Shown here: positions 8,279 to 45,257 of the stretch, piece after piece | How the letters are laid out: each line of letters starts with the position of its first letter | Numbering within the stretch: the first letter of the stretch is position 1 | Assembly (NCBI GenBank): GCA_964531615.1 | Contig: CAZHEJ010000001.1 | Coordinates: forward strand, 1-47,572 | Direction of reading: 5' to 3' | Source of the DNA: an uncultured Gammaproteobacteria bacterium | GTDB lineage: Bacteria; Patescibacteriota; Patescibacteriia; Magasanikbacterales; UBA922 | DNA: 47,572 nucleotides | Notes under the pieces: generated by a model | Told to the model about the DNA's origin: nothing | Database searches by the model: none | The model's input: only the letters and a program-made list of their open reading frames with translations | Translations under genes and position numbers: made by a program

Positions 8279-8830
8279 ATGTCCAAGTTTTTGTTGCACA
8301 CCTGCTGTGGACCGTGCAGCGTTGCAATAATTGATGAATTGCGTAGGGGCGAATCGCGATTCGCCCCTACCGTATTTTTTTATAATTCCAACATTCATCC
8401 GCGGGAAGAATATGAACGGCGCCGGGAGGCGGTGATGCATATCTGTCAGGCGATGAGCATCCCGTTTGTTGAAGGAGAATATGAAACAGAAAAATGGCTT
8501 GAGCTTGCACAAGATTTTAAAGACGAGCCAGAAGGCGGACAGCGCTGTTTGGTTTGTTTTAAGATGCGTTTAGAAAAAACAGCTGAATATGCCAGCCAGA
8601 ATGGCTTTGCATATTTTGGCACAACCTTGACCAGCGGCAGAAACAAAAAAGCGGAAATAATTAATCCGCTGGGTGTTAAAATAGGGGAGAAATACGGAGT
8701 CAAGTTTTATGAGGAAGATTGGAAGAAAAAAGGGAGGCAGGAGAGAAGCAGGGAATTATGTCGAGAGAAGGATATTTATAGGCAGAGTTATTGCGGGTGC
8801 AAGTATTCAATGAGAGATATTAGATATTAA
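8279..8830 (+). CDS. queH: Epoxyqueuosine reductase QueH (DUF208)
   Basis: N-terminal LLHTCCGPCS, FFYNSNIHPREEY and a C-terminal YCGC motif. Confidence 0.8.
   Translation: MSKFLLHTCCGPCSVAIIDELRRGESRFAPTVFFYNSNIHPREEYERRREAVMHICQAMSIPFVEGEYETEKWLELAQDFKDEPEGGQRCLVCFKMRLEKTAEYASQNGFAYFGTTLTSGRNKKAEIINPLGVKIGEKYGVKFYEEDWKKKGRQERSRELCREKDIYRQSYCGCKYSMRDIRY
8343..8370. repeat. Perfect 28-nt palindrome in-frame in queH (RGESRFAPT)
   Basis: gtaggggcgaatcg|cgattcgcccctac. Confidence 0.92.
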
Positions 8831-9252
8831 ATATTTATACTTCTTTCTTTTTTTGATTTATGCGTGATTTTTATAGAAATCATTTTTTTATTTTTTAGCA
8901 ATTTATGAAGTTTCTCCGGCCATTCAATCACACAGACAGTATCCGGCGCGCCAAGATAATCTTCAGCGCCGATTTCTATTAGTTCTCTTTCATCTTTTAA
9001 TCTGTAAGTATCTATATGTATAAGTGTTTTTATGTTTTTATGTTTTAATGTTTTAATGTTGTAGATGTTCATTAGAGTAAAAGTAGGGCTGGTAATTTCT
9101 TTCTTAATACCAAAATACTTCGCAATACCCTTTACTAAAGTTGTCTTGCCTGCGCCAAGTTCTCCATAAAGCAACACAACATCTCCGCCTTTTAATTTAG
9201 CGGAAATTTTTTTGCCCAAAGTGATTGTTTGTTGTTTTGAGCGGGTAATCAC
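8827..9252 (-). CDS. tsaE: tRNA t6A37 biosynthesis ATPase TsaE
   Basis: Walker A LYGELGAGKTTLVKGIA, plus SPTFTL and HIDTYRL motifs. It is ATGA-coupled to glyA. Confidence 0.85.
   Translation of the reverse strand: MITRSKQQTITLGKKISAKLKGGDVVLLYGELGAGKTTLVKGIAKYFGIKKEITSPTFTLMNIYNIKTLKHKNIKTLIHIDTYRLKDERELIEIGAEDYLGAPDTVCVIEWPEKLHKLLKNKKMISIKITHKSKKERSINI
9024..9066 (-). repeat. Octamer tandem repeat in-frame in tsaE (NIKTLKHKNIKTLIH)
   Basis: Plus strand reads gtgttttt atgttttt atgtttta atgtttta atgttgtag. Confidence 0.85.
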
Positions 9253-11407: not shown

Positions 11408-11412
11408 CAATT

Positions 11413-11474
11413 GTCATCCCCGCGTAGGCGGGGATCCAGTTTAAATAATAGATTCCCGCTTTCGCGGGAATGAC
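11413..11474 (+). repeat. Double-hairpin element, family A, intergenic copy abutting the EamA gene start
   Basis: gtcatccccgcgtaggcggggatcc...gattcccgctttcgcgggaatgac. The ORF ATG at 11470 is inside the terminal ggaATGac. Confidence 0.92.
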
Positions 11475-12378
11475 AAAATATATGCTTTGGGTATTTCTCG
11501 CCATTTCCGCGCATTTTTTCTGGGCAGTGGAAAATGTGGCGACAAAATATATTGTCGGCAAAAGGGTGTCTAACCCCTATGTGTTTTTGATTTTGCTTAC
11601 AGTGTTAAGTGGCGGAATAGGCATATTGATATTTCCTTTTGTAAACTTTTTTGTTCCTGAATGGAAAATACTGTTTTTATTGGCGCTCGCCGGCTTTCTT
11701 TATTTTTACGCCGGCCTGCCTTACATAAAGGCAATGCAGATTGAAGAAGTGAGCAGGATAAATATCTTATGGAATCTGGTGCCGATATTCAGCCTGTTCT
11801 TCGGTTATTTTATCGGCGACAGATTGTCAGCGCTTGAAATTTTAGCTTTGGTTTTTTTGGTCAGCGGCGGGGTGACAGCGTCAATCCACAGCCGGGAAAA
11901 GGGCTTTTCTTTTTCCAAGGCCTTTTGGCTGATGATGCTTTCTTGTTTGGTCTATTCTTTTGAAAGCGTCCTTTTCCGCTATGTTGCCTTGCGCATCCCG
12001 TTTGCCATTGCTTTTGTTTGGGTAGCCTTTTTTGAAGTTTTATCAGCTTTGAGCGCGTTATTTTTATCAAAGATTCGTTTTGATTTCAAAGAAGCAATCA
12101 AGAATTGCGGCTATTCTTTATTAGGCATAACTTTAGGAATCGCGGTGATTGCGAATTTGGGGATTTTTTTAAGCCAGTGGGCATTGTCTTTAAAACCCGC
12201 GGCATTAGTTTTTTCATTTGAAGGATTTCAGGTGGTTTTTGTTTTTATAATGGCAATATTTATTACACATTTTTATCCACGCATTTTAAAAGAAGAATTT
12301 GATTGGAAGAATATTGCTTTGAAATTAACGGCAATGGTGTTAATGATAGCGGGAGTAGTGGTGTTAACGTTCTCTTGA
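11470..12378 (+). CDS. EamA/DMT-family transporter
   Basis: About 10 TM helices with a two-fold EamA-like repeat. The ATG at 11470 lies inside a repeat element, and 11482 is an alternative start. Confidence 0.72.
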   Translation: MTKYMLWVFLAISAHFFWAVENVATKYIVGKRVSNPYVFLILLTVLSGGIGILIFPFVNFFVPEWKILFLLALAGFLYFYAGLPYIKAMQIEEVSRINILWNLVPIFSLFFGYFIGDRLSALEILALVFLVSGGVTASIHSREKGFSFSKAFWLMMLSCLVYSFESVLFRYVALRIPFAIAFVWVAFFEVLSALSALFLSKIRFDFKEAIKNCGYSLLGITLGIAVIANLGIFLSQWALSLKPAALVFSFEGFQVVFVFIMAIFITHFYPRILKEEFDWKNIALKLTAMVLMIAGVVVLTFS

Positions 12379-13312: not shown

Positions 13313-15056
13313 CTTTATTCAGCTCTTTAACCATATAAGTATTTTTCAACCAATAACCCAATTTTCGATAATACTCACGAACCCCCACGCCAGCAATTAC
13401 GGCGATTTTTGTATATTTATTCTTTTTGGCAATCTTCTCCGCTTCTTGCATTAATTTTTTCCCCAGCCCCTTATGTTGGCTGGCGTTTTTTTCATTTTTG
13501 CCAATATTAACCAATTTTCCGTAGGTGTGCAGTTCGCGGATGAAGGCACAATCGTGGAGTTGGGAGAGAAGAGTATAAACGCCATTGCGATTTCTAGATT
13601 CCCGCTTTCGCGGGAATGACAAACTGGGCAAGCGAAGGCGAAGAAAAGCAAACACAACTTCGCGTTTTTTGTCTTCAAATGAGAGAAAATACTCTCTCCC
13701 GTCGGTAGTTTGATATTTATCAACAAACAGTTTTGGTTTCCACCCCCTCTTAATCTCCCCCTTATTAAGGGGGAGAGAATGTCCAATCTCCCGGCAGCGC
13801 AGACACTGGCATTTCAACCCGCGTTTTTTCATTTCTTTTTTCAGCTCTTCCCGCAGGTTGGTGATTTTGTTGCCGGCAATAATATCGGTTTCAGGAATAT
13901 CGCGAATCAGGCGGGAAATCCTGCACCAGCGCGGAGTCGCGAGTTTCATTTTAATTATTGCCTCAAAAAGCTTTTTGTCTTCATATGGCCGGTATTTGCC
14001 TGACTTGTATAATTTGTACAGCGGAGAATTTTTTATTACTGTGCATGGATAAATTTTAACCATATCAGGCTTTAATCCCGGGTCAGAAAATAATTTTTTA
14101 TACATCTCCACGTCATGCTTCGGCGTTGAGCCGGGTAAATCAGGCATAAAATGCAAATCAATTTTAAATCCTGCCTGCCTTAATAATAACATTGCGTCTT
14201 TAAACTGTTGAACCGTATGTCCGCGACTGACTAATTTTAAAATTTTATCATCCGGCACTTGCAGTCCAAGCTCAATTCGCGTACAGCCCTGCTGGCGCAT
14301 GTGGTAAATTGTCTTTGGAGTGATGAAATCAGGGCGGGTTTCCAGAGTGAGGCCGATGATTCGGTGTTTGGCTTTTTCGTTTTTGCGTTGTTCTTTTTCT
14401 AATTCTTTTTGCAGTTTTTTGATTGTTTGGCGGCCAATATCCCCCCTGTACCCCCCTTTTTTAAGGGGGGAAATATTTGAAGTCGTCCCCCCCTTAGTAA
14501 AGGGGGGGGAGGAGGGTTGTTGGCGCAATTCATTACACGCTTGAAAAGAACGCAAAATAAACCAATACTGGTAGTTTAGTGGGTAGGCGTTCCAGGTTCC
14601 GCCTTTGACAATAAATTCAATTTTGTCAGTCGGGTGGCCGTTTTGCTCCAGCATTTCAATGCGCCTTCTCATCTGCTTGTAAGGGTCAAATTTTAGGCCC
14701 AAGGCGCGCGCTGCGGCTGGTTCGTTAGACAGATAACTTTTAGGCATTTTTGCTTCCTTTGGGCAATATATGCACTTTCCAGGGCATTTGTAGGGTTTTG
14801 TTAGCGAAGTTACAATTGCAATGCCGGAAAGGGTGCGGATTTGGGCTTTGCGCAGGAAATAAAGGATTTTTTCGTCTTTTTTTGCCCTTTTCTTTTTTAT
14901 CAGATTTTGATAAACTGAAAGCAGGTCATAATTCGGCGGCTGGGTCATTTTCATTTGCGCGCAGATTTTCTGCCGGGCATGGTCAAATTCGGCCTTGGTT
15001 TGGGGGCGTTTGGAAATGATTTCTAAAATTATTTTTTCCAGAATATCTATACTCAT
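13308..15056 (-). CDS. elp3: Elp3-like radical-SAM / GNAT acetyltransferase (tRNA U34 cm5-type modification enzyme)
   Basis: Radical-SAM cluster motif CPGKCIYCP and a C-terminal GNAT motif QHKGLGKKLMQEAEKIA. The ATG at 15056 is preferred over the TTG at 15071. Confidence 0.85.
   Translation of the reverse strand: MSIDILEKIILEIISKRPQTKAEFDHARQKICAQMKMTQPPNYDLLSVYQNLIKKKRAKKDEKILYFLRKAQIRTLSGIAIVTSLTKPYKCPGKCIYCPKEAKMPKSYLSNEPAAARALGLKFDPYKQMRRRIEMLEQNGHPTDKIEFIVKGGTWNAYPLNYQYWFILRSFQACNELRQQPSSPPFTKGGTTSNISPLKKGGYRGDIGRQTIKKLQKELEKEQRKNEKAKHRIIGLTLETRPDFITPKTIYHMRQQGCTRIELGLQVPDDKILKLVSRGHTVQQFKDAMLLLRQAGFKIDLHFMPDLPGSTPKHDVEMYKKLFSDPGLKPDMVKIYPCTVIKNSPLYKLYKSGKYRPYEDKKLFEAIIKMKLATPRWCRISRLIRDIPETDIIAGNKITNLREELKKEMKKRGLKCQCLRCREIGHSLPLNKGEIKRGWKPKLFVDKYQTTDGREYFLSFEDKKREVVFAFLRLRLPSLSFPRKRESRNRNGVYTLLSQLHDCAFIRELHTYGKLVNIGKNEKNASQHKGLGKKLMQEAEKIAKKNKYTKIAVIAGVGVREYYRKLGYWLKNTYMVKELNKE
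13597..13620 (-). repeat. Family A half-element in-frame in elp3 (SFPRKRESR)
   Basis: agattcccgctttcgcgggaatgac. Confidence 0.88.
13740..13777. repeat. Poly-C/poly-G palindrome in-frame in elp3 (LPLNKGEIKRGW)
   Basis: ccaccccctcttaa tctccccctta-t-taagggggaga. Confidence 0.88.
14441..14516. repeat. Tandem pair of poly-C/poly-G palindromes in-frame in elp3 (SSPPFTKGGTTSNISPLKKGGYRGD)
   Basis: cccccctgtaccccccttttttaagggggg ... cccccccttagtaaagggggggg. Confidence 0.9.
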
Positions 15057-16522: not shown

Positions 16523-16558
16523 CCCCGTGCAGTTGGAAACTGCCGGGGTTGTTTTTTT
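16523..16558 (+). terminator. Rho-independent terminator after the lipoprotein gene
   Basis: The ccccgtgcag-ttggaaa-ctgccgggg stem (one bulge) is followed by ttgttttttt. Confidence 0.75.
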
Positions 16559-17474
16559 ATCGGCCTGTGATTAAGCAAACAACAGCTCCGCCAGTCTTCG
16601 CTAAAGCTACGCCGGGCAAGTCAAATTTCCATCCATTTTCAACAGCTTTTTTGAGGCCGACTATTGAAAGCGCGCTGTTGGGGGAGATGAGAATATTGCA
16701 GGCATCTTCAACAAGTTTTATCGCGTCTTTAATTTCTTCGTCGTCTGCAATCCAGCCAGAACCATGGCTGTTTTTTATTATTTCCAAAACTTTTTCTTTG
16801 CGGTGGGCAATTTTGTCAACAATCGCATCTGCTATACTTTGATTTGTATCTTGTATCTCGTATCTCTTATCTCGTATTTCATCTGCAATCGGATGGCAGG
16901 CAGTTGTCTGCACAATGTGGATTTGCGGATTGATTTTGAGCTTTGCAAATGCCTCGCCAAGCCCTTGCGCGGTTGTTCCGGAAGAAGTTGGAATAAATAC
17001 TGCCTGCAGATTTGGTATTTTTGACAATTCATCCGCCAATTCAAAATATCCTTCCAAAGCCGTATCATCAGTTGACTGGCGCAGCATTTTTATTCCTTCT
17101 TTTTTATCCACCTGAAAAGCTTTTTGTTTTGGCTTGTCAACTTGCTCCAGTTTTATGTTTGCGTCATCAATAACCGCCAAAATTATTTTTAATTTTTCAG
17201 GATTTATATTTTTTCCAATGTAGACTGTGAGTTTTATAGCCTGCGGATTATTATAATTGTGCGCCCGCACAGCGTAAATGGCGGCCAGAGCAGCATTGCC
17301 TGAAGAAGATATTACAAAATTTGCATGCCCTTCTTTGGCATATTTTTTAATCATCAAGGGAATGGACCTGCCTTTATGCGAGCCGTATTTATGCTGGTCT
17401 TCGCGCTTTAAATATACTTCCGGCACGCCGAACGCCGCAGCCAGTTCAGGATACGATTGTTGGACAGTTTTCAT
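16557..17474 (-). CDS. PLP-dependent enzyme, tryptophan-synthase-beta fold (threonine-synthase-like)
   Basis: YLKREDQHKYGSHKGRS (PLP lysine region), SSGNAALA, IPTSSGTTAQG and a C-terminal LITGR. Confidence 0.7.
   Translation of the reverse strand: MKTVQQSYPELAAAFGVPEVYLKREDQHKYGSHKGRSIPLMIKKYAKEGHANFVISSSGNAALAAIYAVRAHNYNNPQAIKLTVYIGKNINPEKLKIILAVIDDANIKLEQVDKPKQKAFQVDKKEGIKMLRQSTDDTALEGYFELADELSKIPNLQAVFIPTSSGTTAQGLGEAFAKLKINPQIHIVQTTACHPIADEIRDKRYEIQDTNQSIADAIVDKIAHRKEKVLEIIKNSHGSGWIADDEEIKDAIKLVEDACNILISPNSALSIVGLKKAVENGWKFDLPGVALAKTGGAVVCLITGR
16844..16878 (-). repeat. Heptamer tandem repeat x5 in-frame in the PLP-enzyme gene (EIRDKRYEIQDTN)
   Basis: Plus strand reads ttgtatc ttgtatc tcgtatc tcttatc tcgtatt. 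Confidence 0.9.
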
Positions 17475-17679: not shown

Positions 17680-18228
17680 TTATTTGAATAGTTTTTTCTT
17701 GAATTGATTGAGTTTGCCTCTGCGGATCAATTTTAACACATCAAGAGTAAGATCTATCGAGCGGAAGTTATTGCCGGTAATAATTTTCATGAATTTATCA
17801 AATGGCACGGGCTTGAGTTGGATTCTTTCCCCGGAATCCAATTTTTGTTCGGCAACTTTTTTGCAATTTCTGGCAATAAAGCGGTGCATTGTCCATTCTA
17901 TTTTATTGAATGGTTCGCGAGTAAGCCACAGTTCCCAGTCGTCAGACGCCAGTCCTGTCTCTTCCAGAAGTTCGCGTTTGGCGCATTCCAGCGTGGTTTC
18001 ATTTTTATCCTGTCGCCCGCCGATTATTCCGTATTGCGGAGGCAGGGTCGGCTGTTCTTCATATATCAAAATAATTTTGCCGCCCATTATCGGCAGTACT
18101 TCTATGGTATTTGGCCTTTTCAGCATTTCAAAAGTTGCTTTTGTGCCATCAAACATTTTTTGTTGCCATTGGTAAACATCAAAGATTTTACCTTTGAAAA
18201 CCCGCTTGGCTTGTTTAGGTATTTTCAT
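17680..18228 (-). CDS. NUDIX hydrolase (ADP-ribose pyrophosphatase-like)
   Basis: Nudix box GGRQDKNETTLECAKRELLEETGL. Confidence 0.85.
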   Translation of the reverse strand: MKIPKQAKRVFKGKIFDVYQWQQKMFDGTKATFEMLKRPNTIEVLPIMGGKIILIYEEQPTLPPQYGIIGGRQDKNETTLECAKRELLEETGLASDDWELWLTREPFNKIEWTMHRFIARNCKKVAEQKLDSGERIQLKPVPFDKFMKIITGNNFRSIDLTLDVLKLIRRGKLNQFKKKLFK

Positions 18229-19657
18229 ATTTTTTTACTAATTCATCAATCATCCCGCGGAAGCCATGACTTCCTAAAAATACTATCACATCCCCGTCAG
18301 TGGTATTTTTTATTATGTAATTAATTAATTCTTCGTCGTTTTCAATATATTTAGCGTTTTTGTGCGTTTGGGAAATAATTTGCGTCAGTTTTTCGCCGTC
18401 AAAATGTCGCAGTTCATCAGAAGTTTTTAATTTTGTTAATTTAGGAATAATCACCTCGTCGGCTGCGGTAAAAGCATAATCATAGCTCGGTGTTGATTGT
18501 GGTTGGCGGTTGCCGGTGTTTGGCTCAAAGACAGCGATGATTTTTTTATTATAAATTTTGCGCAGAGTATTTAGAGTGAATTCAGCTTTTGTCGGCGAAT
18601 GCGCAATGTCGTCAAAAACAGTGATTTTACCCTCATAGCGTTTCTCAAGCCGTCTTTTTATTCCTTTAAAACTTTCAACTGCAGAAATAATTTTTTCCGG
18701 CGCAATGCCGATCTGATGCGCCATGGCAAAGACGCCCGTTATATTTTCAGCCATATAATCCCCGAGCACTGCAACACGTAGCACGTAACACGTATCACGG
18801 AACATAATTTTAAATTCTAAACCATTTTTATTCTGTTTTATATCAAAATATCTACACACACAGTTTTCAGTTTTTCCATAAGTGATAATATTTGATGTGG
18901 GATACGTGATATGTGATATGTGTTCATTTGCCACAATCAACCCATTTTCTGGAATAGATTTTATAAGCTTCTCAAACACTTCAAAATATGATTTTTCCGT
19001 CGGATAAACGTCCGCGTGGTCCCATTTTATAGCAGTCAAAAGCAGGTGGGTGGGGGAGTAGTGGGAGAATTTCGGCGAATTGTCCCAGCGCGCGGATTTA
19101 TACTCGTCGCCTTCAATTACGGAGTAATTGCCGCGTGATTCAGACGAAGTCTGAATTTTACGCGGCTCATTATTTTCCAAGCTCGCTGAATCAAAATCAT
19201 CAGTCGCCAATCCGCCGAACATATAGCTCGGATTATATCCGGCTTCAGTCAAAATCCAGCTTAAAAGCGCGGCAGTGGTGGTTTTGCCATAAGTGCCGGC
19301 GCAGACAATTGAATTTTGTTTGACAAAATATTCCGCAATTACTTCCGGATATGATTTGTAATTTAATTTATTTTTCTGCACATACTGCCATTCAGGATTT
19401 GTTGAACTGGCAACATTGCCAACAACGACTAAGTCCGGTGTATTGATTTTCTCTGGATGCCAGCCAGGATAAAAATCAATTTGATGTTTTTTTAAATAAT
19501 CAGAAACAGGCGGAAAAAATCCCGCGTCGCTTCCGGACACTTCAAAGCACGGCACGAGACTGCCGTCAGGCAGTTTTTCGTGTCCGGCTTTTTTAAAAGC
19601 AATTGCCAGCCCTCCCATTGCCACGCCGCAAATGCCGATAAAATGAATATGCTTCAT
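18215..19657 (-). CDS. mpl: Mur-ligase family, Mpl-type (UDP-MurNAc:tripeptide ligase)
   Basis: HFIGICGVAMGGLA, VSGSDAGFFPPV, AGTYGKTTT, IEGDEYKSARWDNSPKFSHY and DDIAHSPTK are collinear with Mpl rather than MurC. Confidence 0.82.
   Translation of the reverse strand: MKHIHFIGICGVAMGGLAIAFKKAGHEKLPDGSLVPCFEVSGSDAGFFPPVSDYLKKHQIDFYPGWHPEKINTPDLVVVGNVASSTNPEWQYVQKNKLNYKSYPEVIAEYFVKQNSIVCAGTYGKTTTAALLSWILTEAGYNPSYMFGGLATDDFDSASLENNEPRKIQTSSESRGNYSVIEGDEYKSARWDNSPKFSHYSPTHLLLTAIKWDHADVYPTEKSYFEVFEKLIKSIPENGLIVANEHISHITYPTSNIITYGKTENCVCRYFDIKQNKNGLEFKIMFRDTCYVLRVAVLGDYMAENITGVFAMAHQIGIAPEKIISAVESFKGIKRRLEKRYEGKITVFDDIAHSPTKAEFTLNTLRKIYNKKIIAVFEPNTGNRQPQSTPSYDYAFTAADEVIIPKLTKLKTSDELRHFDGEKLTQIISQTHKNAKYIENDEELINYIIKNTTDGDVIVFLGSHGFRGMIDELVKKYENT
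18773..18800 (-). repeat. Heptamer tandem repeat x4 in-frame in mpl (RDTCYVLRVAV)
   Basis: Plus strand reads aacacgt agcacgt aacacgt atcacgg. Confidence 0.88.
18894..18921 (-). repeat. Heptamer tandem repeat x4 in-frame in mpl; the coding-strand unit CACATAT is identical to leuS 2743-2777 (HISHITY)
   Basis: Plus strand reads gatgtgg gatacgt gatatgt gatatgt. Confidence 0.9.
19131..19165. repeat. 35-nt nested palindrome in-frame in mpl (EPRKIQTSSESRG)
   Basis: ccgcgt-g-attcagac-gaa-gtctgaat-ttt-acgcgg. Confidence 0.85.
19541..19576. repeat. 36-nt palindromic insert splitting the Mur-ligase N-terminal motif of mpl (GHE|KLPDGSLVPCFE|VSGSD)
   Basis: The core is actgcc-gtca-ggcagt. The flanking codons ggacac/gtgtcc extend the stem. 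Confidence 0.8.
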
Positions 19658-20400: not shown

Positions 20401-21216
20401 TTATTTCAAAATTTTCTTTAAATCATTTAAATTTTGTTTCCATTCTTTCCCATCAAACCATCCCAATCCTTCAAACTGCAGTTTGTAAGTGTCATTCGGA
20501 CGCTGGGCAGAGCCCAAATAAACATAATGTTTTTTATGCTCTTGCGCGTATAAAATTGCTTTAAGCATCATGCCAAGGCCGAGATTGGGGATTAGCTTAT
20601 AGCTTGTAGCTTTTAGGTCGTAGAAGGGATAGGAATAGTGAAGGAGGGCATTGGTTTCGCGGCAGATGGCGTAGGCAATTTCATTCCGAGGCGAAGCCGA
20701 GGAATCTTTCGAAGAAAAAGTACTTGGGGATACATTAGTTTTTTGTAGTTCATCAGACATTGGCTTCGAAAGATCCTTCGTCCCCCGACGTAACGTCGGG
20801 GTCCTCAGGATGAACGAAAGAAGCAAATTAAAATTATGTTCAGTCGTCAATAACTCTTTCACTTTGTTAGCAGAAAAAGTCTCTTTGCCGAATTTAGTGT
20901 CATAAAAATCTTTGGCCATTTTGCCAATTGACCAATGGTAATTAGTCCCGCAGCGAGCGGGATCCCGCTGTGGCGGGATAACTGGTAACTCGTAACTAGT
21001 AACTAGTAAATTTTCAGTTTTTTTCAATATCCTTCTATTTTCACTGGACAATTTGAATTTTTTTAAGTCAACGCGCAAGCTTCTTGTCTGGTACATGTCT
21101 CCTTTGCCAGTGCGCGTGAACAAATAGCCCTCGTTGTAGAGGGAGTTGATGTTCGCGTCAGAAAAGTCAATGATGGTTTTTTTTGACCAAGTGAGATACA
21201 TATTAATATAATGCAA
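20401..21216 (-). CDS. Arginyl/leucyl-tRNA--protein transferase (ATE/Bpt)-like protein
   Basis: EGYLFTRTG..Y..RSLRVDLKKFKLSSENRRILKK and the C-terminal YVYLGSAQRPNDTYKLQFEGLGWFDGKEW parallel the Bpt/ATE N- and C-domain signatures. The alternative start at 21201 would remove the overlap with mraY. Confidence 0.6.
   Translation of the reverse strand: MHYINMYLTWSKKTIIDFSDANINSLYNEGYLFTRTGKGDMYQTRSLRVDLKKFKLSSENRRILKKTENLLVTSYELPVIPPQRDPARCGTNYHWSIGKMAKDFYDTKFGKETFSANKVKELLTTEHNFNLLLSFILRTPTLRRGTKDLSKPMSDELQKTNVSPSTFSSKDSSASPRNEIAYAICRETNALLHYSYPFYDLKATSYKLIPNLGLGMMLKAILYAQEHKKHYVYLGSAQRPNDTYKLQFEGLGWFDGKEWKQNLNDLKKILK
20592..20619 (-). repeat. Heptamer tandem repeat x4 in-frame in the ATE-like gene; the coding-strand unit AAGCTAN is shared with 4844-4878 (SYKL)
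   Basis: Plus strand reads ttagctt atagctt gtagctt ttaggtc. Confidence 0.88.
20683..20814 (+). repeat. 132-nt (44-codon) composite MITE-like element in-frame in the ATE-like gene; same architecture as 7009-7153
   Basis: The left arm is attccgaggcgaagccgaggaatctttcgaag. After the core come cttcgaaagatccttcgtcccccgacgtaacgtcggggtcctcaggat. Confidence 0.8.
20945..20979. repeat. Tandem double hairpin (family A-like variant) in-frame in the ATE-like gene (PPQRDPARCGT)
   Basis: gtcccgc-agcga-gcgggatcccgc-tgtg-gcgggat. Confidence 0.8.
20978..21012 (-). repeat. Heptamer tandem repeat x5 in-frame in the ATE-like gene (LLVTSYELPVI)
   Basis: Plus strand reads ataactg gtaactc gtaacta gtaacta gtaaatt. 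Confidence 0.9.
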
Positions 21217-25701: not shown

Positions 25702-25775
25702 GGACGCGTAGCTCAGCTGGTTAGAGCGTCTCGTTTACACCGAGAAGGCCAGGGGTCCGAATCCCTTCGCGTCCA
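25702..25775 (+). tRNA. tRNA-Val (anticodon TAC), no encoded 3' CCA
   Basis: Manual cloverleaf of 74 nt. Acceptor GGACGCG/CGCGTCC, D arm GCTC-AGCTGGTTA-GAGC, anticodon arm TCTCG-TTTACAC-CGAGA, T arm AGGGG-TCCGAAT-CCCTT, discriminator A. Confidence 0.9.
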
Positions 25776-25785
25776 CACTCACATT

Positions 25786-28693: not shown

Positions 28694-29452
28694 ATGGACG
28701 TTATTCAAGCGTTATTTTTAGGTATAATCCAAGGTTTGACCGAGTTTTTGCCAATCTCCTCATCCGGGCATTTAATTTTTATCCCCAAGTTGTTTGGGTG
28801 GGCAGACCAAGGGCTGGCGTTTGATACGATTATTCATCTGGGAACGCTGGCAGCAGTAGTGGTATATTTTAGAAAAAGAATGACAGATAGAAAATTAGGC
28901 TGGTTAATAATTTTAAGTGTAATTCCTGCCGGAATAATCGGGTTTTTTTGGGGGGAGTGGATTGAGAATACTTTCAGGTCAGCGTTAGTTGTGGGAGTGA
29001 ATATGATATTTTGGGGCATAGTATTGTTGGTTGCGGATAATATCAGAAGATTAAAAGATTGGAAGATTAAAAGATTAGAAAATTTAAGCTGTGGCAAAGC
29101 ATTATTTATCGGATGCGCGCAGGCGATAGCGCTGATTCCCGGGGTCAGCCGATCTGGAATTACAATGACAGCCGGATTGTTTTCAAAACTGGATAAAAAA
29201 AGCGCGGCAGAATTTTCTTTTTTAATGAGCGCGCCGATTATTTTTTTAGCAGGCTTGTCAGGAATGCTGGATTTTACAAAACAGGAAACAGGAACAGCAA
29301 TTTTGCCGCTGGCTGTCGGATTTATCGCGTCAGCCATAAGCGGATTTGTTGCAATATGGGGATTGATGAAAATAATTCAGAAATGGAGCTATGCCCCGTT
29401 CGTTGTTTACAGGATTATTATCGGAATTTTAATTTTAGCGTTTTTATTATGA
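28694..29452 (+). CDS. uppP: Undecaprenyl-diphosphate phosphatase
   Basis: GLTEFLPISSSGH and PGVSRSGITMTAG motifs. A consensus-like promoter lies upstream. Confidence 0.9.
   Translation: MDVIQALFLGIIQGLTEFLPISSSGHLIFIPKLFGWADQGLAFDTIIHLGTLAAVVVYFRKRMTDRKLGWLIILSVIPAGIIGFFWGEWIENTFRSALVVGVNMIFWGIVLLVADNIRRLKDWKIKRLENLSCGKALFIGCAQAIALIPGVSRSGITMTAGLFSKLDKKSAAEFSFLMSAPIIFLAGLSGMLDFTKQETGTAILPLAVGFIASAISGFVAIWGLMKIIQKWSYAPFVVYRIIIGILILAFLL
29048..29079 (+). repeat. 16-nt direct duplication in-frame in uppP (RLKDWKIKRLE)
   Basis: agattaaaagattgga agattaaaagattaga. Confidence 0.85.
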
Positions 29453-32117: not shown

Positions 32118-33578
32118 CTGACAAATTTATTTAAAACAATTTATAAAATCTCCAAAAAGCAGAAGACGGAAGTTTATGTTGTCGGCGGTTATGTAAGGGA
32201 CTGCCTGCTTGGCATTGAGCAGAACAAGGACATTGATTTTGTGGTAAGTGGCAGTGGTTTGGAGTTTGCCAAAGCATTTGATAAAGAATTAAAGCAATCA
32301 GGTTCATTGGTAGAATTTCCGGAGTTTGATACAGCGAGATATGTAATAACACCCCCCCTTTGTCCCCCCCTTATTAAGGGGGGGAAATGGGGGGGTATTG
32401 GCCAAATTGAATTAGAGTTCGCCGGTGCGAGGAGCGAGAAATATGATGAAAACTCCCGTAAGCCTAAAGTTGTTGCGACAGGCTTGGAAGAGGATTTGAA
32501 ACGTCGCGATTTTACTGTAAATGCGATGGCCCAGCAAATAATGACTGGTGGAAAGTCGGGGAAAATAATGGATTTGTTTGCGGGACAAAAGGATTTGAAA
32601 AATAAAATTTTGAGGACGCCAATGGATCCTGACACCACTTTTTCCGAAGACCCTTTGCGCATGATGCGCGCGGCAAGGTTTGCCTCTCAGCTCGGATTTG
32701 CCATTGAAGCCAATACCTATGCGGCAATGGAAAAGAATGCCAAGCGCTTGAAAATCATTTCAGCCGAGCGCATTAAAGAAGAATTATTCAAAATTTTTGC
32801 CACTCCCAAGCCGTCAGTCGGTCTACGTATTCTTTATGATACTGGTTTAATGCAGATATTTCTGCGTGAAGTCTGCGATTTGAAGGGCGCGGAAGAAGTT
32901 TTCGGCCAATTGCACAAGGATGTTTTGGAGCATACTTTTAAAGTGATTGATAATTTAAGCGAGCGCACTGATAAAGTCTTATTGCGCTTGTCAGCCTTGT
33001 TCCACGACATCGCCAAGCCGGAAACCAAGAAATTTGTCCGCGGGCGGGGCTGGACTTTTGACATGCATGAGCATCTGGGCAAAAAAATGGCCCAGCAGAT
33101 CGGCCGGCGCCTGCGCTTCAGCATTGATGAAATAAAATACATCGGGAAACTGATACGTTGGCATCAGCAGCCCATAGCTCTTATGGACGAGGGCATTACT
33201 GACAGCGCCATCCGGCGCTTGATCGTCAATCTCGGCGATGAGCTTGAAGATCTGCTCAAGCTTTGCCGTTCAGACATTACGACAGGCAATCCTTTAAAAT
33301 TAAAAAGGCGCCTGGCTAATTATGATTATCTGGAAAGGCGCATTCATGAGGTAATTGAAAAAGACAAACTGCGCGCATTCCAGTCTCCTGTCCGCGGAGA
33401 TGAAATTATGAAAGAATGCGGGCTCAAGCCAGGCCCGACAGTCGGGAAAATAAAAAAAGCCATTGAAGAGGCGATTTTGGACGGCAAAATTCCCAATGAG
33501 TACGAACCAGCGAGAAAATATTTTGAAGAGATAAAAAATAAGTATTTGAAAGAGGCGAGCGAGTGGGAGAGGGTTTGA
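32118..33578 (+). CDS. cca: tRNA nucleotidyltransferase (CCA-adding enzyme / polyA-polymerase family) with HD domain; start codon unresolved
   Basis: The catalytic motif VYVVGGYVRDCLLG...DIDF is encoded at 32172-32240, and the HD motif is LFHDIAKP. The frame is open from 32106, but the first ATG/GTG/TTG is the GTG at 32241. CTG 32118, ATT 32139 and ATC 32148 are the only upstream candidates. Confidence 0.8.
   Translation: MTNLFKTIYKISKKQKTEVYVVGGYVRDCLLGIEQNKDIDFVVSGSGLEFAKAFDKELKQSGSLVEFPEFDTARYVITPPLCPPLIKGGKWGGIGQIELEFAGARSEKYDENSRKPKVVATGLEEDLKRRDFTVNAMAQQIMTGGKSGKIMDLFAGQKDLKNKILRTPMDPDTTFSEDPLRMMRAARFASQLGFAIEANTYAAMEKNAKRLKIISAERIKEELFKIFATPKPSVGLRILYDTGLMQIFLREVCDLKGAEEVFGQLHKDVLEHTFKVIDNLSERTDKVLLRLSALFHDIAKPETKKFVRGRGWTFDMHEHLGKKMAQQIGRRLRFSIDEIKYIGKLIRWHQQPIALMDEGITDSAIRRLIVNLGDELEDLLKLCRSDITTGNPLKLKRRLANYDYLERRIHEVIEKDKLRAFQSPVRGDEIMKECGLKPGPTVGKIKKAIEEAILDGKIPNEYEPARKYFEEIKNKYLKEASEWERV
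32352..32395. repeat. Poly-C/poly-G palindrome block in-frame in cca (TPPLCPPLIKGGKWGG)
   Basis: cccccccttt gt ccccccc-ttattaa-ggggggg aaat ggggggg. Confidence 0.9.
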
Positions 33579-44750: not shown

Positions 44751-45257
44751 ATGTCTTTTTTAGAGCTTTTTCCCAGTTTAGATTTATTTATTTTATTTTT
44801 ATTTATCATTGCAATTATTCTGCATCTGATTTTTGTTAAAAAATCCAGCTTGTTTATTAATGCTTTGTCGGTTTACGTTGCTGTAGCGTTGGTGATAATT
44901 GTTCCGCTGTTCAGCGCAACCGTCGCTGGCTGGCTGAATTTTTCAGTTTACATCCGAGTTATTGCTTTTTTGCTTTTATGTTTTCTTGTTTTTTTGCTCT
45001 TATCGCACAGCAATTTGGGAGAGTTTTCAAAAAATGTCTCGCCAACCCAGTTTGGAACATCTTTGGCATGGAGAATCGCGATTGTCGGTTTGTTTTTCAC
45101 CACAGTTTTATATTTTCTACCATCCGGCATAGTTCAATTCGGCCCGATTGTAAAAGCACTGTTTGTAAATTTTATCGCATTGGTTGTTTGGTTTTTAATC
45201 CCATTGTTGCTGGCTTTTGCTTACAGGTTTAAGACGAGGAGAGGGTGGGTGGAGTAA
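44751..45257 (+). CDS. Integral membrane protein, unknown function
   Basis: 168 aa with 4-5 TM helices. Confidence 0.55.
   Translation: MSFLELFPSLDLFILFLFIIAIILHLIFVKKSSLFINALSVYVAVALVIIVPLFSATVAGWLNFSVYIRVIAFLLLCFLVFLLLSHSNLGEFSKNVSPTQFGTSLAWRIAIVGLFFTTVLYFLPSGIVQFGPIVKALFVNFIALVVWFLIPLLLAFAYRFKTRRGWVE

What the first reader, a model, noticed from the sequence alone, without database searches (positions are those of the whole stretch)
18894..18921. Heptanucleotide tandem repeats embedded in-frame in many unrelated genes, with identical units (and peptides) shared between genes
Seen: blocks of 4-5 tandem 7-nt units occur in these places.
- leuS: 743-770, 844-878, 1138-1165, 2743-2777.
- The methyltransferase: 4844-4878.
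- The PLP enzyme: 16844-16878.
- mpl: 18773-18800, 18894-18921.
- The ATE-like gene: 20592-20619, 20978-21012.

The unit CACATAT, read on the coding strand, is shared by leuS and mpl and yields HISHITY in both. The unit AAGCTAN is shared by the methyltransferase and the ATE-like gene and yields SYKL in both.

A 7-nt period is not a multiple of 3, so gain or loss of one unit would frameshift an essential gene. All copies are nevertheless in frame.

Established: heptameric short tandemly repeated repetitive (STRR) sequences are known in heterocystous cyanobacteria, mostly in intergenic DNA. Slippage at non-triplet repeats drives phase variation of contingency genes.

Inference: identical units in the same coding orientation at unlinked loci argue for a templated or mobile origin rather than independent local slippage. 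The mechanism and function are unknown to me.
Basis: partly seen in the sequence, partly recalled or inferred. Interest (0 to 1): 0.7.

Follow-up and report, generated by a model that had tools for sequence, protein, structure and literature searches.

The report
Dispersed 7-base repeat arrays overwriting gene loops
Short runs of four to five copies of a 7-base unit sit inside intact housekeeping genes of this ultra-small (Patescibacteria/CPR) bacterium; they replace existing codons instead of adding length, are copied between sites in the genome, and occur across the whole group.

Summary
All ten 7-nt arrays exist at the stated places, plus an eleventh at 8814-8835. Simulations of the window predict 0.02-0.14 arrays. 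The contig is from a Magasanikbacteria-like Patescibacterium.

The same excess of period 7 appears in two independent samples of related genomes: 187 arrays in 1.34 Mb and 143 in 1.01 Mb, 3.5-6 times more than period 6 or 8.

- **Position.** Arrays recur at the same variable positions of LeuS, Mpl and other orthologs.
- **Length.** Most do not change protein length, so they overwrite codons. That is why they stay in frame.
- **Turnover.** Close relatives carry arrays at the same site and of the same length, but with a unit changed in every copy. This is concerted evolution.
- **Forced features.** A shared peptide and shared coding orientation carry no information. A 7-nt unit read over 21 nt always gives one cyclic heptapeptide, and 9 of 10 units have stop codons on the other strand.
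- **Copying.** Arrays within one genome share exact stretches that include irregularities about 26 times more often than arrays from different genomes. Their flanks are unrelated.

These are STRR-like heptanucleotide arrays in a new phylum. The copying mechanism is inferred, not shown.

The parts
740..770 (+). leuS array 1, unit GACTWCA x4.3 with a 14-nt super-period; encodes DFRLQTSDYR (aa 246-256)
   Evidence: This is a LeuS hot spot: 19 arrays among 61 orthologs. The NWIGRS-to-TTRPDT distance is 25 aa, the same as in array-free orthologs and E. coli.
844..878 (+). leuS array 2, unit AATTTCA x4.7, perfect; encodes ISNFKFQISNF
   Evidence: Hot spot with 17 arrays. The TTRPDT-to-GTGA distance is 88 aa, as in most orthologs whether or not they carry an array. 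QISNF is conserved in P0002 and P0032.
1135..1165 (+). leuS array 3, unit GACTACA x4.1; encodes TTDYRLQTT. Shares 24 nt exactly with array 1.
   Evidence: (family D20). Hot spot with 7 arrays.
2743..2777 (+). leuS array 4, unit CACATAT (ATCACAT) x4.3-5; encodes NHISHITYHI
   Evidence: The FNT-to-PFAPH distance is 35 aa, against 34 in 47 of 58 array-free orthologs. Same unit as the mpl array at 18888-18922 (pair I1).
4844..4878 (+). Methyltransferase array, units AAAAGCT/ATAAGCT x5; encodes EKLKAISYKLKA
   Evidence: No net length change against orthologs in L004 and L075. L054, L002 and L041 have TAAGAYT-like semi-arrays at the same place. The TAT variant removes an in-frame TAA (sequence).
8814..8835 (+).
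16844..16878 (-). Array in the PLP-dependent enzyme (PALP), coding-strand unit GAGATAC x4.6; encodes EIRDKRYEIQDT
   Evidence: It lies in a loop of variable length. The ortholog in L081 has a different array (CAAGTTA) in the same loop.
18773..18804 (-). mpl array B, coding-strand unit CGTGTTA (ACGTGTT) x4.6; encodes MFRDTCYVLRV
   Evidence: No gaps against 11 orthologs. L081 has xGTGTTA and L083 has GTTATCT at the same codons. It lies in a predicted beta-hairpin, strands 279-286 and 289-295.
18888..18922 (-). mpl array A, the flagged coordinates; coding-strand units CACATAT/CACGTAT x5; encodes HISHITYPTSN
   Evidence: No gaps against orthologs. L081 has CACGTAT x4 at the same codons. It lies in a predicted loop, residues 245-255, between two strands.
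20592..20623 (-). ORF 20401-21216 array 2, coding-strand units CTAAAAG/CTACAAG/CTATAAG; encodes LKATSYKL
   Evidence: Matches the methyltransferase array over 25 nt with one mismatch (pair I6). The L081 ortholog has AATTCAA x4.6 at the same place and of the same length.
20977..21012 (-). ORF 20401-21216 array 1, coding-strand unit TTACTAG x4.4-5; encodes NLLVTSYELPV
   Evidence: A perfect unit would give an in-frame TAG; the copy reads TAC GAG. The L081 ortholog has TTACTCC x4 (SLLLTPYSLP) at the same place.

Best explanation
The blocks belong to a class of short heptanucleotide arrays found throughout Patescibacteria. Each has about 4-5 units (28-35 nt). They resemble the STRR sequences of cyanobacteria and act at the DNA level.

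**Shown**
1. Period 7 is specifically in excess in this lineage.
2. Inside genes, arrays are confined to a few variable segments, which recur across orthologs.
3. At length-constrained sites they replace native codons base for base, so the reading frame is never disturbed.
4. Arrays evolve in concert: a change in the unit is found in all copies while position and length stay fixed.
5. Arrays at different loci of one genome are copies of each other, and only the array is copied, not its flanks.

**Inferred**
- Arrays are written and homogenised by misaligned, templated DNA synthesis. This would be transient slippage at offsets of 7 or 14 nt, or template switching between arrays, including snap-back copying that gives the inverted pairs seen between genes.
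- Purifying selection then removes every product that introduces a stop codon, shifts the frame or lands in a constrained segment.
- Gain or loss of a single unit in these genes is presumably lethal and therefore never seen.
- No function is needed to explain the copies inside genes. The preference for 7 nt probably reflects a property of the replication or repair machinery, as proposed earlier for prokaryotic heptanucleotide repeats.
For: **Enrichment**
- Window: 10 arrays against at most 0.14 expected.
- 80 leuS loci, 1.34 Mb: period 7 = 187, period 6 = 31, period 8 = 39, period 9 = 18.
- 80 independent dnaK loci, 1.01 Mb: 143, 23, 40 and 21.
- Controls: 50 kb of E. coli has none, and 76 kb of Firmicutes-labelled loci has two AAATAAA runs.

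**Hot spots and selection**
- 69 arrays in 61 leuS genes fall in about six bins. Conservation of the covered columns is 0.36, against 0.68 overall.
- dnaK is nearly free of arrays. Of 5 arrays in 147 kb of stop-to-stop ORF, two lie upstream of the start and three in the C-terminal tail.
- Stop-avoiding variants are visible in the sequence.

**Length neutrality**
- leuS site 2: 88 aa in most orthologs, with or without an array.
- leuS site 4: 34 aa in 5 of 7 array-bearing and 47 of 58 array-free orthologs.
- mpl: no gaps at either array.

**Concerted evolution**
- L010 against L012: AAATTCA against AGATTCA in four copies, and AATTTCC against AATCTCA, at equal length.
- L010 against L011: AATTTCC x5 against ATCAAGA x5.
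- L016 against L018: changes that follow a 14-nt super-period.
- Window against L081: arrays at four orthologous sites, although four-fold degenerate sites are only 40% identical.

**Copying**
- Shared irregular stretches of at least 20 nt: 2.2% of within-genome pairs against 0.08% of between-genome pairs.
- L131 has an identical 30-mer at positions 666 and 1829, and at least seven family members on both strands.
- Flanks are no more alike than chance.
- A new array in L018 has the unit of its neighbour 147 nt away and adds a net 21 nt.

**Inverted pairs.** There are 29 adjacent same-unit pairs in inverted orientation against 9 in direct orientation. One such pair folds at -32.6 kcal/mol, z = -6.1.

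**Literature.** Heptanucleotide repeats are the commonest long simple repeats in most prokaryotic genomes, and a polymerase-footprint slippage idea has been proposed (Mrazek 2007, as summarised in PMC4679880).
Against: - No enzyme or intermediate has been identified, so the copying mechanism is pure inference.
- Copying without flanking homology that also replaces an equal length is not a documented outcome of simple slippage.
- The decay of unit sharing with distance in the leuS sample (10%, 5%, 3%) did not repeat in the dnaK sample (0 of 21 pairs under 1 kb).
- Part of the shared variant order can come from convergent stop avoidance. The TAT in both AAGCTA arrays is forced.
- The narrow size peak at 30-35 nt and unit families shared between distant genomes (window and L109) could point to a dedicated mechanism or a function.
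- At leuS site 1, array-bearing loops are often longer than the baseline (27-46 aa against 25 aa), so insertion does happen.
Confidence: 0.6

Rival explanations
1. Each array arose independently by local replication slippage from a chance proto-repeat in a permissive loop. Shared units reflect only limited sequence space: AT-rich, stop-free units.
For: - This is the standard model for simple repeats, with a known heptanucleotide bias (PMC4679880).
- Arrays are confined to variable segments.
- QISNF at leuS site 2 is conserved and already encodes two AATTTCA units.
- 58% of random units are stop-free on a given strand.
Against: - Within-genome sharing of identical units is 6-7 times the between-genome rate, also when GC content is matched.
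- Shared irregular stretches of at least 20 nt are 26 times enriched within genomes.
- The shared window units are not common heptamers.
- Stepwise +/-7 nt slippage cannot build a length-neutral array in an essential gene through viable intermediates.
Confidence: 0.15
2. The arrays are very small mobile elements, like the small dispersed repeats of cyanobacteria. A dedicated enzyme or RNA intermediate encoded elsewhere in the genome would insert or write them.
For: - Discrete size, with a peak at 30-35 nt among perfect arrays.
- Genome-specific families with conserved internal order on both strands (L131).
- Unrelated flanks.
- The same family in the window and in the distant L109.
Against: - No transposase, RAYT or reverse transcriptase was found among the 30 window ORFs scanned.
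- No target duplications are visible.
- Arrays are length-neutral at constrained sites.
- Arrays persist at orthologous codons across near-saturated divergence.
- No matches in viral contigs.
Confidence: 0.15
3. The arrays are kept for a function. Candidates are phase-variable switches, protein-binding or RNA-structure sites, or useful peptide segments.
For: - Arrays persist at the same sites over deep divergence.
- The size range is narrow.
- Intergenic inverted pairs form stable terminator-like hairpins.
- The coding strand of arrays is 45% A and 10% G, against 31% and 25% in the host ORFs.
Against: - Units differ freely between lineages at one site.
- The host genes are housekeeping genes, not contingency genes.
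- Arrays occupy the least conserved columns.
- No unit-number change between strains 99.3% identical.
- A one-unit change would destroy leuS or mpl.
Confidence: 0.07
4. The arrays are assembly or sequencing artefacts.
For: The window is a contig of a metagenome-assembled genome, and no reads were available.
Against: - The same phenomenon appears in about 160 independent contigs from many projects and assemblers.
- Arrays are far shorter than a read.
- The ORFs stay intact.
- Homologous arrays occur at identical codons in independent assemblies.
Confidence: 0.01

Closest known systems
STRR (short tandemly repeated repetitive) heptanucleotide sequences of heterocystous cyanobacteria, and the general excess of heptanucleotide long simple repeats in prokaryotes (Mrazek 2007)
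   Same: - Unit of 7 nt, a few tandem copies, many dispersed loci.
- Genome-specific unit families.
- Per base, enriched outside ORFs.
- A preference for about four units was also reported for GGGNATC arrays in Xanthomonas and Nostoc (PMC4692102).
   Different: - The phylum is Patescibacteria.
- Most copies lie inside conserved housekeeping genes. All ten in this window do, whereas the three arrays in 50 kb of a Nostoc plasmid are outside or at the edge of annotated genes.
- Units are many and mostly A/T-rich, not a few G/C-rich ones.
- Length-neutral overwriting and concerted evolution at orthologous codons are shown here. I found no description of them in the papers I could read.
TAACTGA heptamer direct repeats of Beggiatoaceae, some cyanobacteria and Bacteroidetes (PMC4679880)
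   Same: [quoted passage not shown]
- Copies inside ORFs occur only in the orientation free of stops, give a fixed heptapeptide (LSVISYQ) and lie in variable surface loops.
- Related strains differ by steps of 7 nt between genes.
   Different: - There is one dominant unit, mostly just upstream of start codons, with a proposed role in translation.
- Here there are many units and no positional link to start codons in the window, and copies inside ORFs dominate.
Rickettsia palindromic elements (selfish repeats inserted in frame in protein genes; from my own knowledge)
   Same: A dispersed DNA repeat family tolerated in frame inside essential genes at permissive protein positions.
   Different: Those elements are palindromes of about 100-150 bp that add 30-50 residues. 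The arrays here are about 30 nt, not palindromic, and mostly add nothing. The window does hold a separate GC-rich double-hairpin element that behaves like them.
Phase-variable contingency loci (non-triplet repeats)
   Same: Repeats that are not multiples of three lie inside ORFs, so a one-unit change would shift the frame.
   Different: The host genes are housekeeping genes. The tracts are short (4-5 units) and often imperfect. No variation in unit number was seen between close strains or orthologs.
Tandem repeats of Borg elements (PMC9879509)
   Same: Fast-evolving tandem repeats inside ORFs that create new peptide segments.
   Different: In ORFs, Borg repeat units are multiples of three and add disordered regions. 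Here the unit is 7 nt and the array replaces sequence.

Membership tests
Heptanucleotide STRR / long simple sequence repeats | Tandem head-to-tail copies of a 7-nt unit, more than chance gives | tested here: met
   10 arrays against at most 0.14 expected. Searches show the excess of period 7 in 2.35 Mb of related genomes.
Heptanucleotide STRR / long simple sequence repeats | The same unit recurs at several dispersed loci of one genome (unit families) | tested here: met
   Three pairs in the window. Within-genome sharing is 6-7 times the between-genome rate. L131 has at least seven members of one family.
Heptanucleotide STRR / long simple sequence repeats | Mainly intergenic location | tested here: inconclusive
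   In related loci 40% of arrays lie outside or at the edge of ORFs that cover 94.5% of the DNA. In the window, 10 of 11 arrays are inside ORFs.
Heptanucleotide STRR / long simple sequence repeats | Unit number varies between strains in steps of 7 nt | tested here: inconclusive
   Intergenic arrays differ in length between L023 and L030. There was no indel between L081 and L082 at 99.3% identity. No reads were available.
Heptanucleotide STRR / long simple sequence repeats | Host is a heterocystous cyanobacterium (the original definition) | tested here: not met
   The closest homologs are from Magasanikbacteria and other Patescibacteria genomes assembled from metagenomes.
Phase-variable contingency locus | The repeat lies in a surface, antigen or restriction gene whose on/off switching is tolerated | tested here: not met
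   The hosts are leuS, mpl, a PLP-dependent enzyme, a methyltransferase and an arginyltransferase-like ORF.
Phase-variable contingency locus | Frame-shifting changes in unit number among close strains or reads | tested here: not met
   No gaps between L081 and L082. Orthologous arrays have equal length. Read-level data could not be examined.
In-frame selfish insertion elements (RPE-like) | The element adds residues relative to orthologs that lack it | tested here: not met
   Length is neutral at leuS sites 2 and 4 and at both mpl arrays. At leuS site 1 some lineages gain 2-21 aa.
In-frame selfish insertion elements (RPE-like) | Palindromic element of about 100 bp or more | tested here: not met
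   The arrays are direct repeats of 28-35 nt.
REP/REPIN elements | Imperfect palindromes in inverted doublets between genes, with a RAYT transposase in the genome | tested here: inconclusive
   Related loci have 29 inverted same-unit doublets between genes, but the single arms are not palindromes. No transposase domain was found in the 30 window ORFs scanned. The rest of the genome was not available.
Diversity-generating retroelement target | Template and variable repeats that differ at adenines, with a reverse transcriptase nearby | tested here: not met
   Differences between paired arrays are not specific to A. No reverse transcriptase was found in the window.
Cyanobacterial small dispersed repeats (SDR) | Units of 21-27 nt with a conserved hairpin, nested in heptamer arrays | not tested
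   This family is known to me only from memory (Elhai 2008). No such insert was seen inside the window arrays.

The most novel reading that the evidence does not exclude
Patescibacteria have a sequence-rewriting process specific to period 7. It is either built into their replication or repair machinery or carried out by a dedicated system. It copies heptamer tracts of about 30 nt between loci without flanking homology and replaces an equal length of target DNA. This would make the arrays the smallest known convertible or mobile elements, and a steady source of new peptide segments in the loops of essential proteins.
Probability: 0.3. Interest if true: 0.85.

Novelty: new variant of a known kind. 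Interest (0 to 1): 0.6.

Why it matters
Heptanucleotide arrays have been known since 1990, and no mechanism for them has been settled. In cyanobacteria they lie mostly between genes, where their history cannot be reconstructed.

In Patescibacteria they lie inside conserved genes. Orthologous codons there serve as a ruler. They show that arrays overwrite sequence without changing length, are homogenised faster than silent sites diverge, and are copied between loci.

This makes the origin of such arrays testable by strain-resolved metagenomics. It also points to a recurrent mutational source of protein-loop variation, and a hidden frameshift hazard, in the smallest bacterial genomes.

For annotation, peptides such as HISHITY or SYKL shared between unrelated proteins are by-products of DNA repeats. 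They are not protein motifs.

Tried and rejected
- **Exact look-up of the window Mpl** found no contig. A later search showed that the window is itself the only record (P0121), so no near-identical strain is available.
- **Viral-contig scans** for two array sequences gave no hits.
- **Known RNAs.** The tRNA scan and Rfam found only tRNA-Val at 25702-25776, so no known RNA overlaps an array.
- **'Commonest heptamers' explanation** was rejected.
- **Net insertion** was rejected for leuS sites 2 and 4 and for mpl.
- **Distance decay of unit sharing** was seen in the leuS loci but not in the dnaK loci, so it is not claimed.
- **TRF array length modulo 3** shows no bias and is uninformative, because array edges are fuzzy.
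- **My first home-made repeat finder** missed array 844-878. I replaced it with TRF.
- **Mrazek 2007** could not be opened. It is cited only through PMC4679880.
- **Lin and Kussell 2012** does not discuss heptamers.
- **Literature searches** linking heptamer repeats with CPR taxa found nothing.
- **LeuS structure idea.** I considered that leuS sites 1 and 3 share an array because they are the two linkers of the editing domain. I dropped this because site 3 (aa 378-388) lies well inside the domain (Pfam 234-419).
Full report
**Observation**

The sequences are as described. A sliding offset-7 scan finds the same ten plus one more, AGATATT x3 at 8814-8835 across the QueH stop codon. It finds nothing in 21-47.5 kb. 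Markov simulations of order 1, 3 and 5 expect 0.02, 0.03 and 0.14 such arrays, and none of 300 simulations gave more than one.

All ten arrays lie inside intact ORFs:
- leuS, 5-3088
- a class-I methyltransferase, 4612-5214
- a PLP-dependent enzyme, 16557-17474
- mpl, 18215-19657
- a 271-residue ORF with weak arginyltransferase similarity, 20401-21216

The shared units and peptides are real. CACATAT gives HISHITY in leuS and mpl. AAAAGCT/ATAAGCT gives SYKL in the methyltransferase and the 271-residue ORF. GACTWCA appears twice in leuS.

**Organism**

The closest LeuS and Mpl homologs, at 65-72% identity, come from Magasanikbacteria and other Patescibacteria genomes assembled from metagenomes. 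The window is a complete NCBI contig (self-hit P0121). The gene content is housekeeping.

**What is trivial**

A 7-nt unit read in triplets passes through all three phases in 21 nt. The same unit on the same strand therefore always encodes the same cyclic heptapeptide. Nine of the ten units have stop codons on the opposite strand.

Three units have a stop even on the coding strand. There the copy that would be in frame carries a variant: TAC GAG instead of TAC TAG at 20977-21012, and TAT AAG instead of TAA AAG in both AAGCTA arrays. Shared orientation and shared peptide are therefore forced by keeping the ORF open. They say nothing about origin.

**A trait of the whole lineage**

| Sample | Size | Period 7 | Period 6 | Period 8 | Period 9 |
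|---|---|---|---|---|---|
| 80 leuS loci (species-representative genomes) | 1.34 Mb | 187 | 31 | 39 | 18 |
| 80 dnaK loci (metagenomes) | 1.01 Mb | 143 | 23 | 40 | 21 |

Both samples hold 0.14 arrays per kb. Controls are low. Fifty kb of E. coli that includes leuS has none. Seventy-six kb of Firmicutes-labelled loci has two AAATAAA runs. Fifty kb of a Nostoc plasmid has three, all outside or at the edge of annotated genes.

Array length peaks at 30-35 nt in both samples. Among perfect arrays, 17 are 30-35 nt long and only one is 28-29 nt.

**Where arrays sit in genes**

In 61 leuS orthologs, 69 arrays fall into a few hot spots (window numbering):
- residues 240-255: 19 arrays
- 270-300: 17 arrays
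- 375-390: 7 arrays
- 840-870: 9 arrays
- 900-930: 6 arrays

The four window arrays occupy four of these hot spots. Columns covered by arrays have conservation 0.36, against 0.68 overall.

dnaK is almost free of arrays. The only ones lie upstream of the start or in the variable C-terminal tail. Per base, arrays are enriched outside and at the edges of ORFs: 40% of arrays lie there, although ORFs cover 94.5% of the DNA.

In a model of Mpl (mean pLDDT 83), the flagged array encodes a loop (residues 245-255) and the other array a beta-hairpin. On the coding strand, arrays are 45% A and 10% G, against 31% and 25% in their host ORFs.

**Arrays replace sequence and do not insert**

- The distance from TTRPDT to GTGA across leuS site 2 is 88 residues in most orthologs, with or without an array. 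This includes Firmicutes-labelled genomes.
- The distance across site 4 is 34 residues in 47 of 58 array-free and 5 of 7 array-bearing orthologs. The window has 35, and L018 has 41, which is +21 nt.
- Both mpl arrays align without gaps to eleven orthologs.
- The methyltransferase array is length-neutral against two orthologs.
- At the length-tolerant site 1 the window equals the baseline of 25 residues. Other lineages gain 2-21 residues, and these gains are not multiples of seven.

This resolves the apparent paradox of a non-triplet repeat staying in frame.

**Concerted evolution**

- L010 and L012 carry arrays at the same positions and of equal length, but the unit differs in every copy: AAATTCA against AGATTCA, and AATTTCC against AATCTCA.
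- L010 and L011 have exactly five units at site 2 with units that differ at 4 of 7 positions.
- L016 and L018 differ in a pattern that follows a 14-nt super-period.
- The syntenic relative L081 has arrays at four of the same codon positions as the window:
  - CACGTAT against CACATAT
  - xGTGTTA against CGTGTTA
  - TTACTCC against TTACTAG
  - AATTCAA against AAGCTAW

Four-fold degenerate sites between L081 and the window are only 40% identical, which is close to saturation. The periodicity must therefore have been renewed since the two lineages split.

**Copying between loci**

Identical units are found in 4.9% (leuS sample) and 10.8% (dnaK sample) of within-genome array pairs. Between genomes the figures are 0.8% and 1.6%. 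In the leuS sample, shuffling units among loci gives a mean of 3.6 identical pairs at least 1 kb apart, and 16 were observed.

More telling is the sharing of irregular stretches. Within-genome pairs share exact stretches of at least 20 nt that include a break of periodicity in 15 of 693 cases. Between genomes the figure is 5 of 5,924. Examples:
- An identical 30-mer at two sites of L131, with at least seven family members on both strands.
- Stretches of 27 and 25 nt with four or five irregularities in L024.
- The 24-nt match between leuS sites 1 and 3 in the window.

In most pairs the 40 nt on either side are 17-38% identical, which is chance level. Only the array is copied.

A new array in L018 has the unit of a neighbour 147 nt away. 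L109, a genome whose DnaK is 75% identical to the window's, carries the same AAGCTA family at four loci.

One caveat applies. In the AAGCTA pair of the window, one shared variant (TAT) is forced by stop avoidance.

**Between genes**

Adjacent same-unit arrays are inverted in 29 cases and direct in 9. They form strong hairpins. The one after the dnaK stop codon in L109 folds at -32.6 kcal/mol, z = -6.1.

**Interpretation**

The arrays are STRR-like heptanucleotide repeats in a new phylum.

What is shown:
- the excess of period 7
- the hot spots
- length-neutral replacement
- homogenisation
- copying within a genome

What is inferred is the mechanism. I propose misaligned, templated synthesis, such as transient slippage at offsets of 7 or 14 nt and template switching between arrays, including snap-back copying. 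Selection against stops, frameshifts and constrained sites would then filter the products.

A dedicated mobile system or a function cannot be excluded. Three features keep those readings open: the narrow size, families shared between distant genomes, and the composition bias.

Phase variation is unlikely. The genes are housekeeping genes, and two strains 99.3% identical show no indel over 3,134 nt that includes two arrays.

An artefact is excluded by recurrence at identical codons in independent assemblies.

**Literature**

Heptanucleotide repeats are the commonest long simple repeats in most prokaryotic genomes, with a proposed polymerase-footprint explanation (Mrazek 2007, as summarised in PMC4679880). 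[quoted passage not shown] TAACTGA arrays inside ORFs occur only in the stop-free orientation, in variable loops (PMC4679880). Searches linking heptamer repeats with CPR taxa found nothing.

Noticed in passing
window 1391-1850 (LeuS aa 463-615): LeuS (1,027 aa) carries an alpha/beta-hydrolase domain inserted in the synthetase body. Many Patescibacteria LeuS homologs have this insert, or NUDIX, HAD or methyltransferase domains, according to their Pfam lists.
   Followed up: partly
window 2551-2623, 3087-3157, 11409-11477, 13595-13623; probably also 20676-20811: A GC-rich double-hairpin element of about 73 nt (TTGTCATCCCCGCGAAGGCGGGGATC ... GATTCCCGCTTTCGCGGGAATGACA) occurs in several copies. 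One lies in frame in leuS and adds about 20 aa (PAKAGIQ...DSRFRGND). Part of one lies in frame in the radical-SAM ORF (SLSFPRKRESRN). A related insert of more than 40 aa lies in ORF 20401-21216, where the L081 ortholog has an AAATTTC array.
   Followed up: partly
window 20946-20979: A small GC-rich palindrome (TCCCGCTGTGGCGGGA) is inserted in frame (IPPQRDPARCG, +11 aa against L081) directly next to the heptamer array at 20977-21012.
   Followed up: partly
window 13741-13776, 14438-14516, 32350-32393: Hairpins made of G and C runs (for example CCCCCCCTTATTAAGGGGGGG). Three lie in frame in the radical-SAM ORF (SLPLNKGE, SPLKKGG, SPPFTKGG).
   Followed up: no
window 1-21024 against 21025-47572: All 11 heptamer arrays lie in the first 21 kb and none in the last 26.5 kb (rough scan-statistic p about 0.007). 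The syntenic block in L081 is even denser, with about 12 arrays in 12.9 kb. I cannot tell whether this reflects gene tolerance or local spread.
   Followed up: partly
window 9025-9069, 29047-29077, 44962-44998: Period-8, A/T-rich tandem arrays (TGTTTTAA x5.5, AAGATTAA x3.9, TTGCTTTT x4.6). Period 8 is the second most common period in related genomes.
   Followed up: no
L109 8798-8860 and 11896-11957; L131 1829-1969, 3339-3416, 8554-8626, 18223-18296; L134 2026-2093: Between genes, heptamer arrays often come as inverted same-unit pairs separated by 6-80 nt. These form long hairpins, some directly after stop codons, and look like terminators or REPIN-type doublets.
   Followed up: partly
L131 19814-19856: GGGAATC x6, the same unit as the G-quadruplex-forming repeat described in Xanthomonas, occurs in a contig that also holds two other heptamer families.
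   Followed up: no
L081 1059-1436: In the syntenic relative, an Avd-like gene (23S_rRNA_IVP/bAvd, the accessory protein type of diversity-generating retroelements) lies next to mpl. The window has a metallo-beta-lactamase-fold gene at that position.
   Followed up: no
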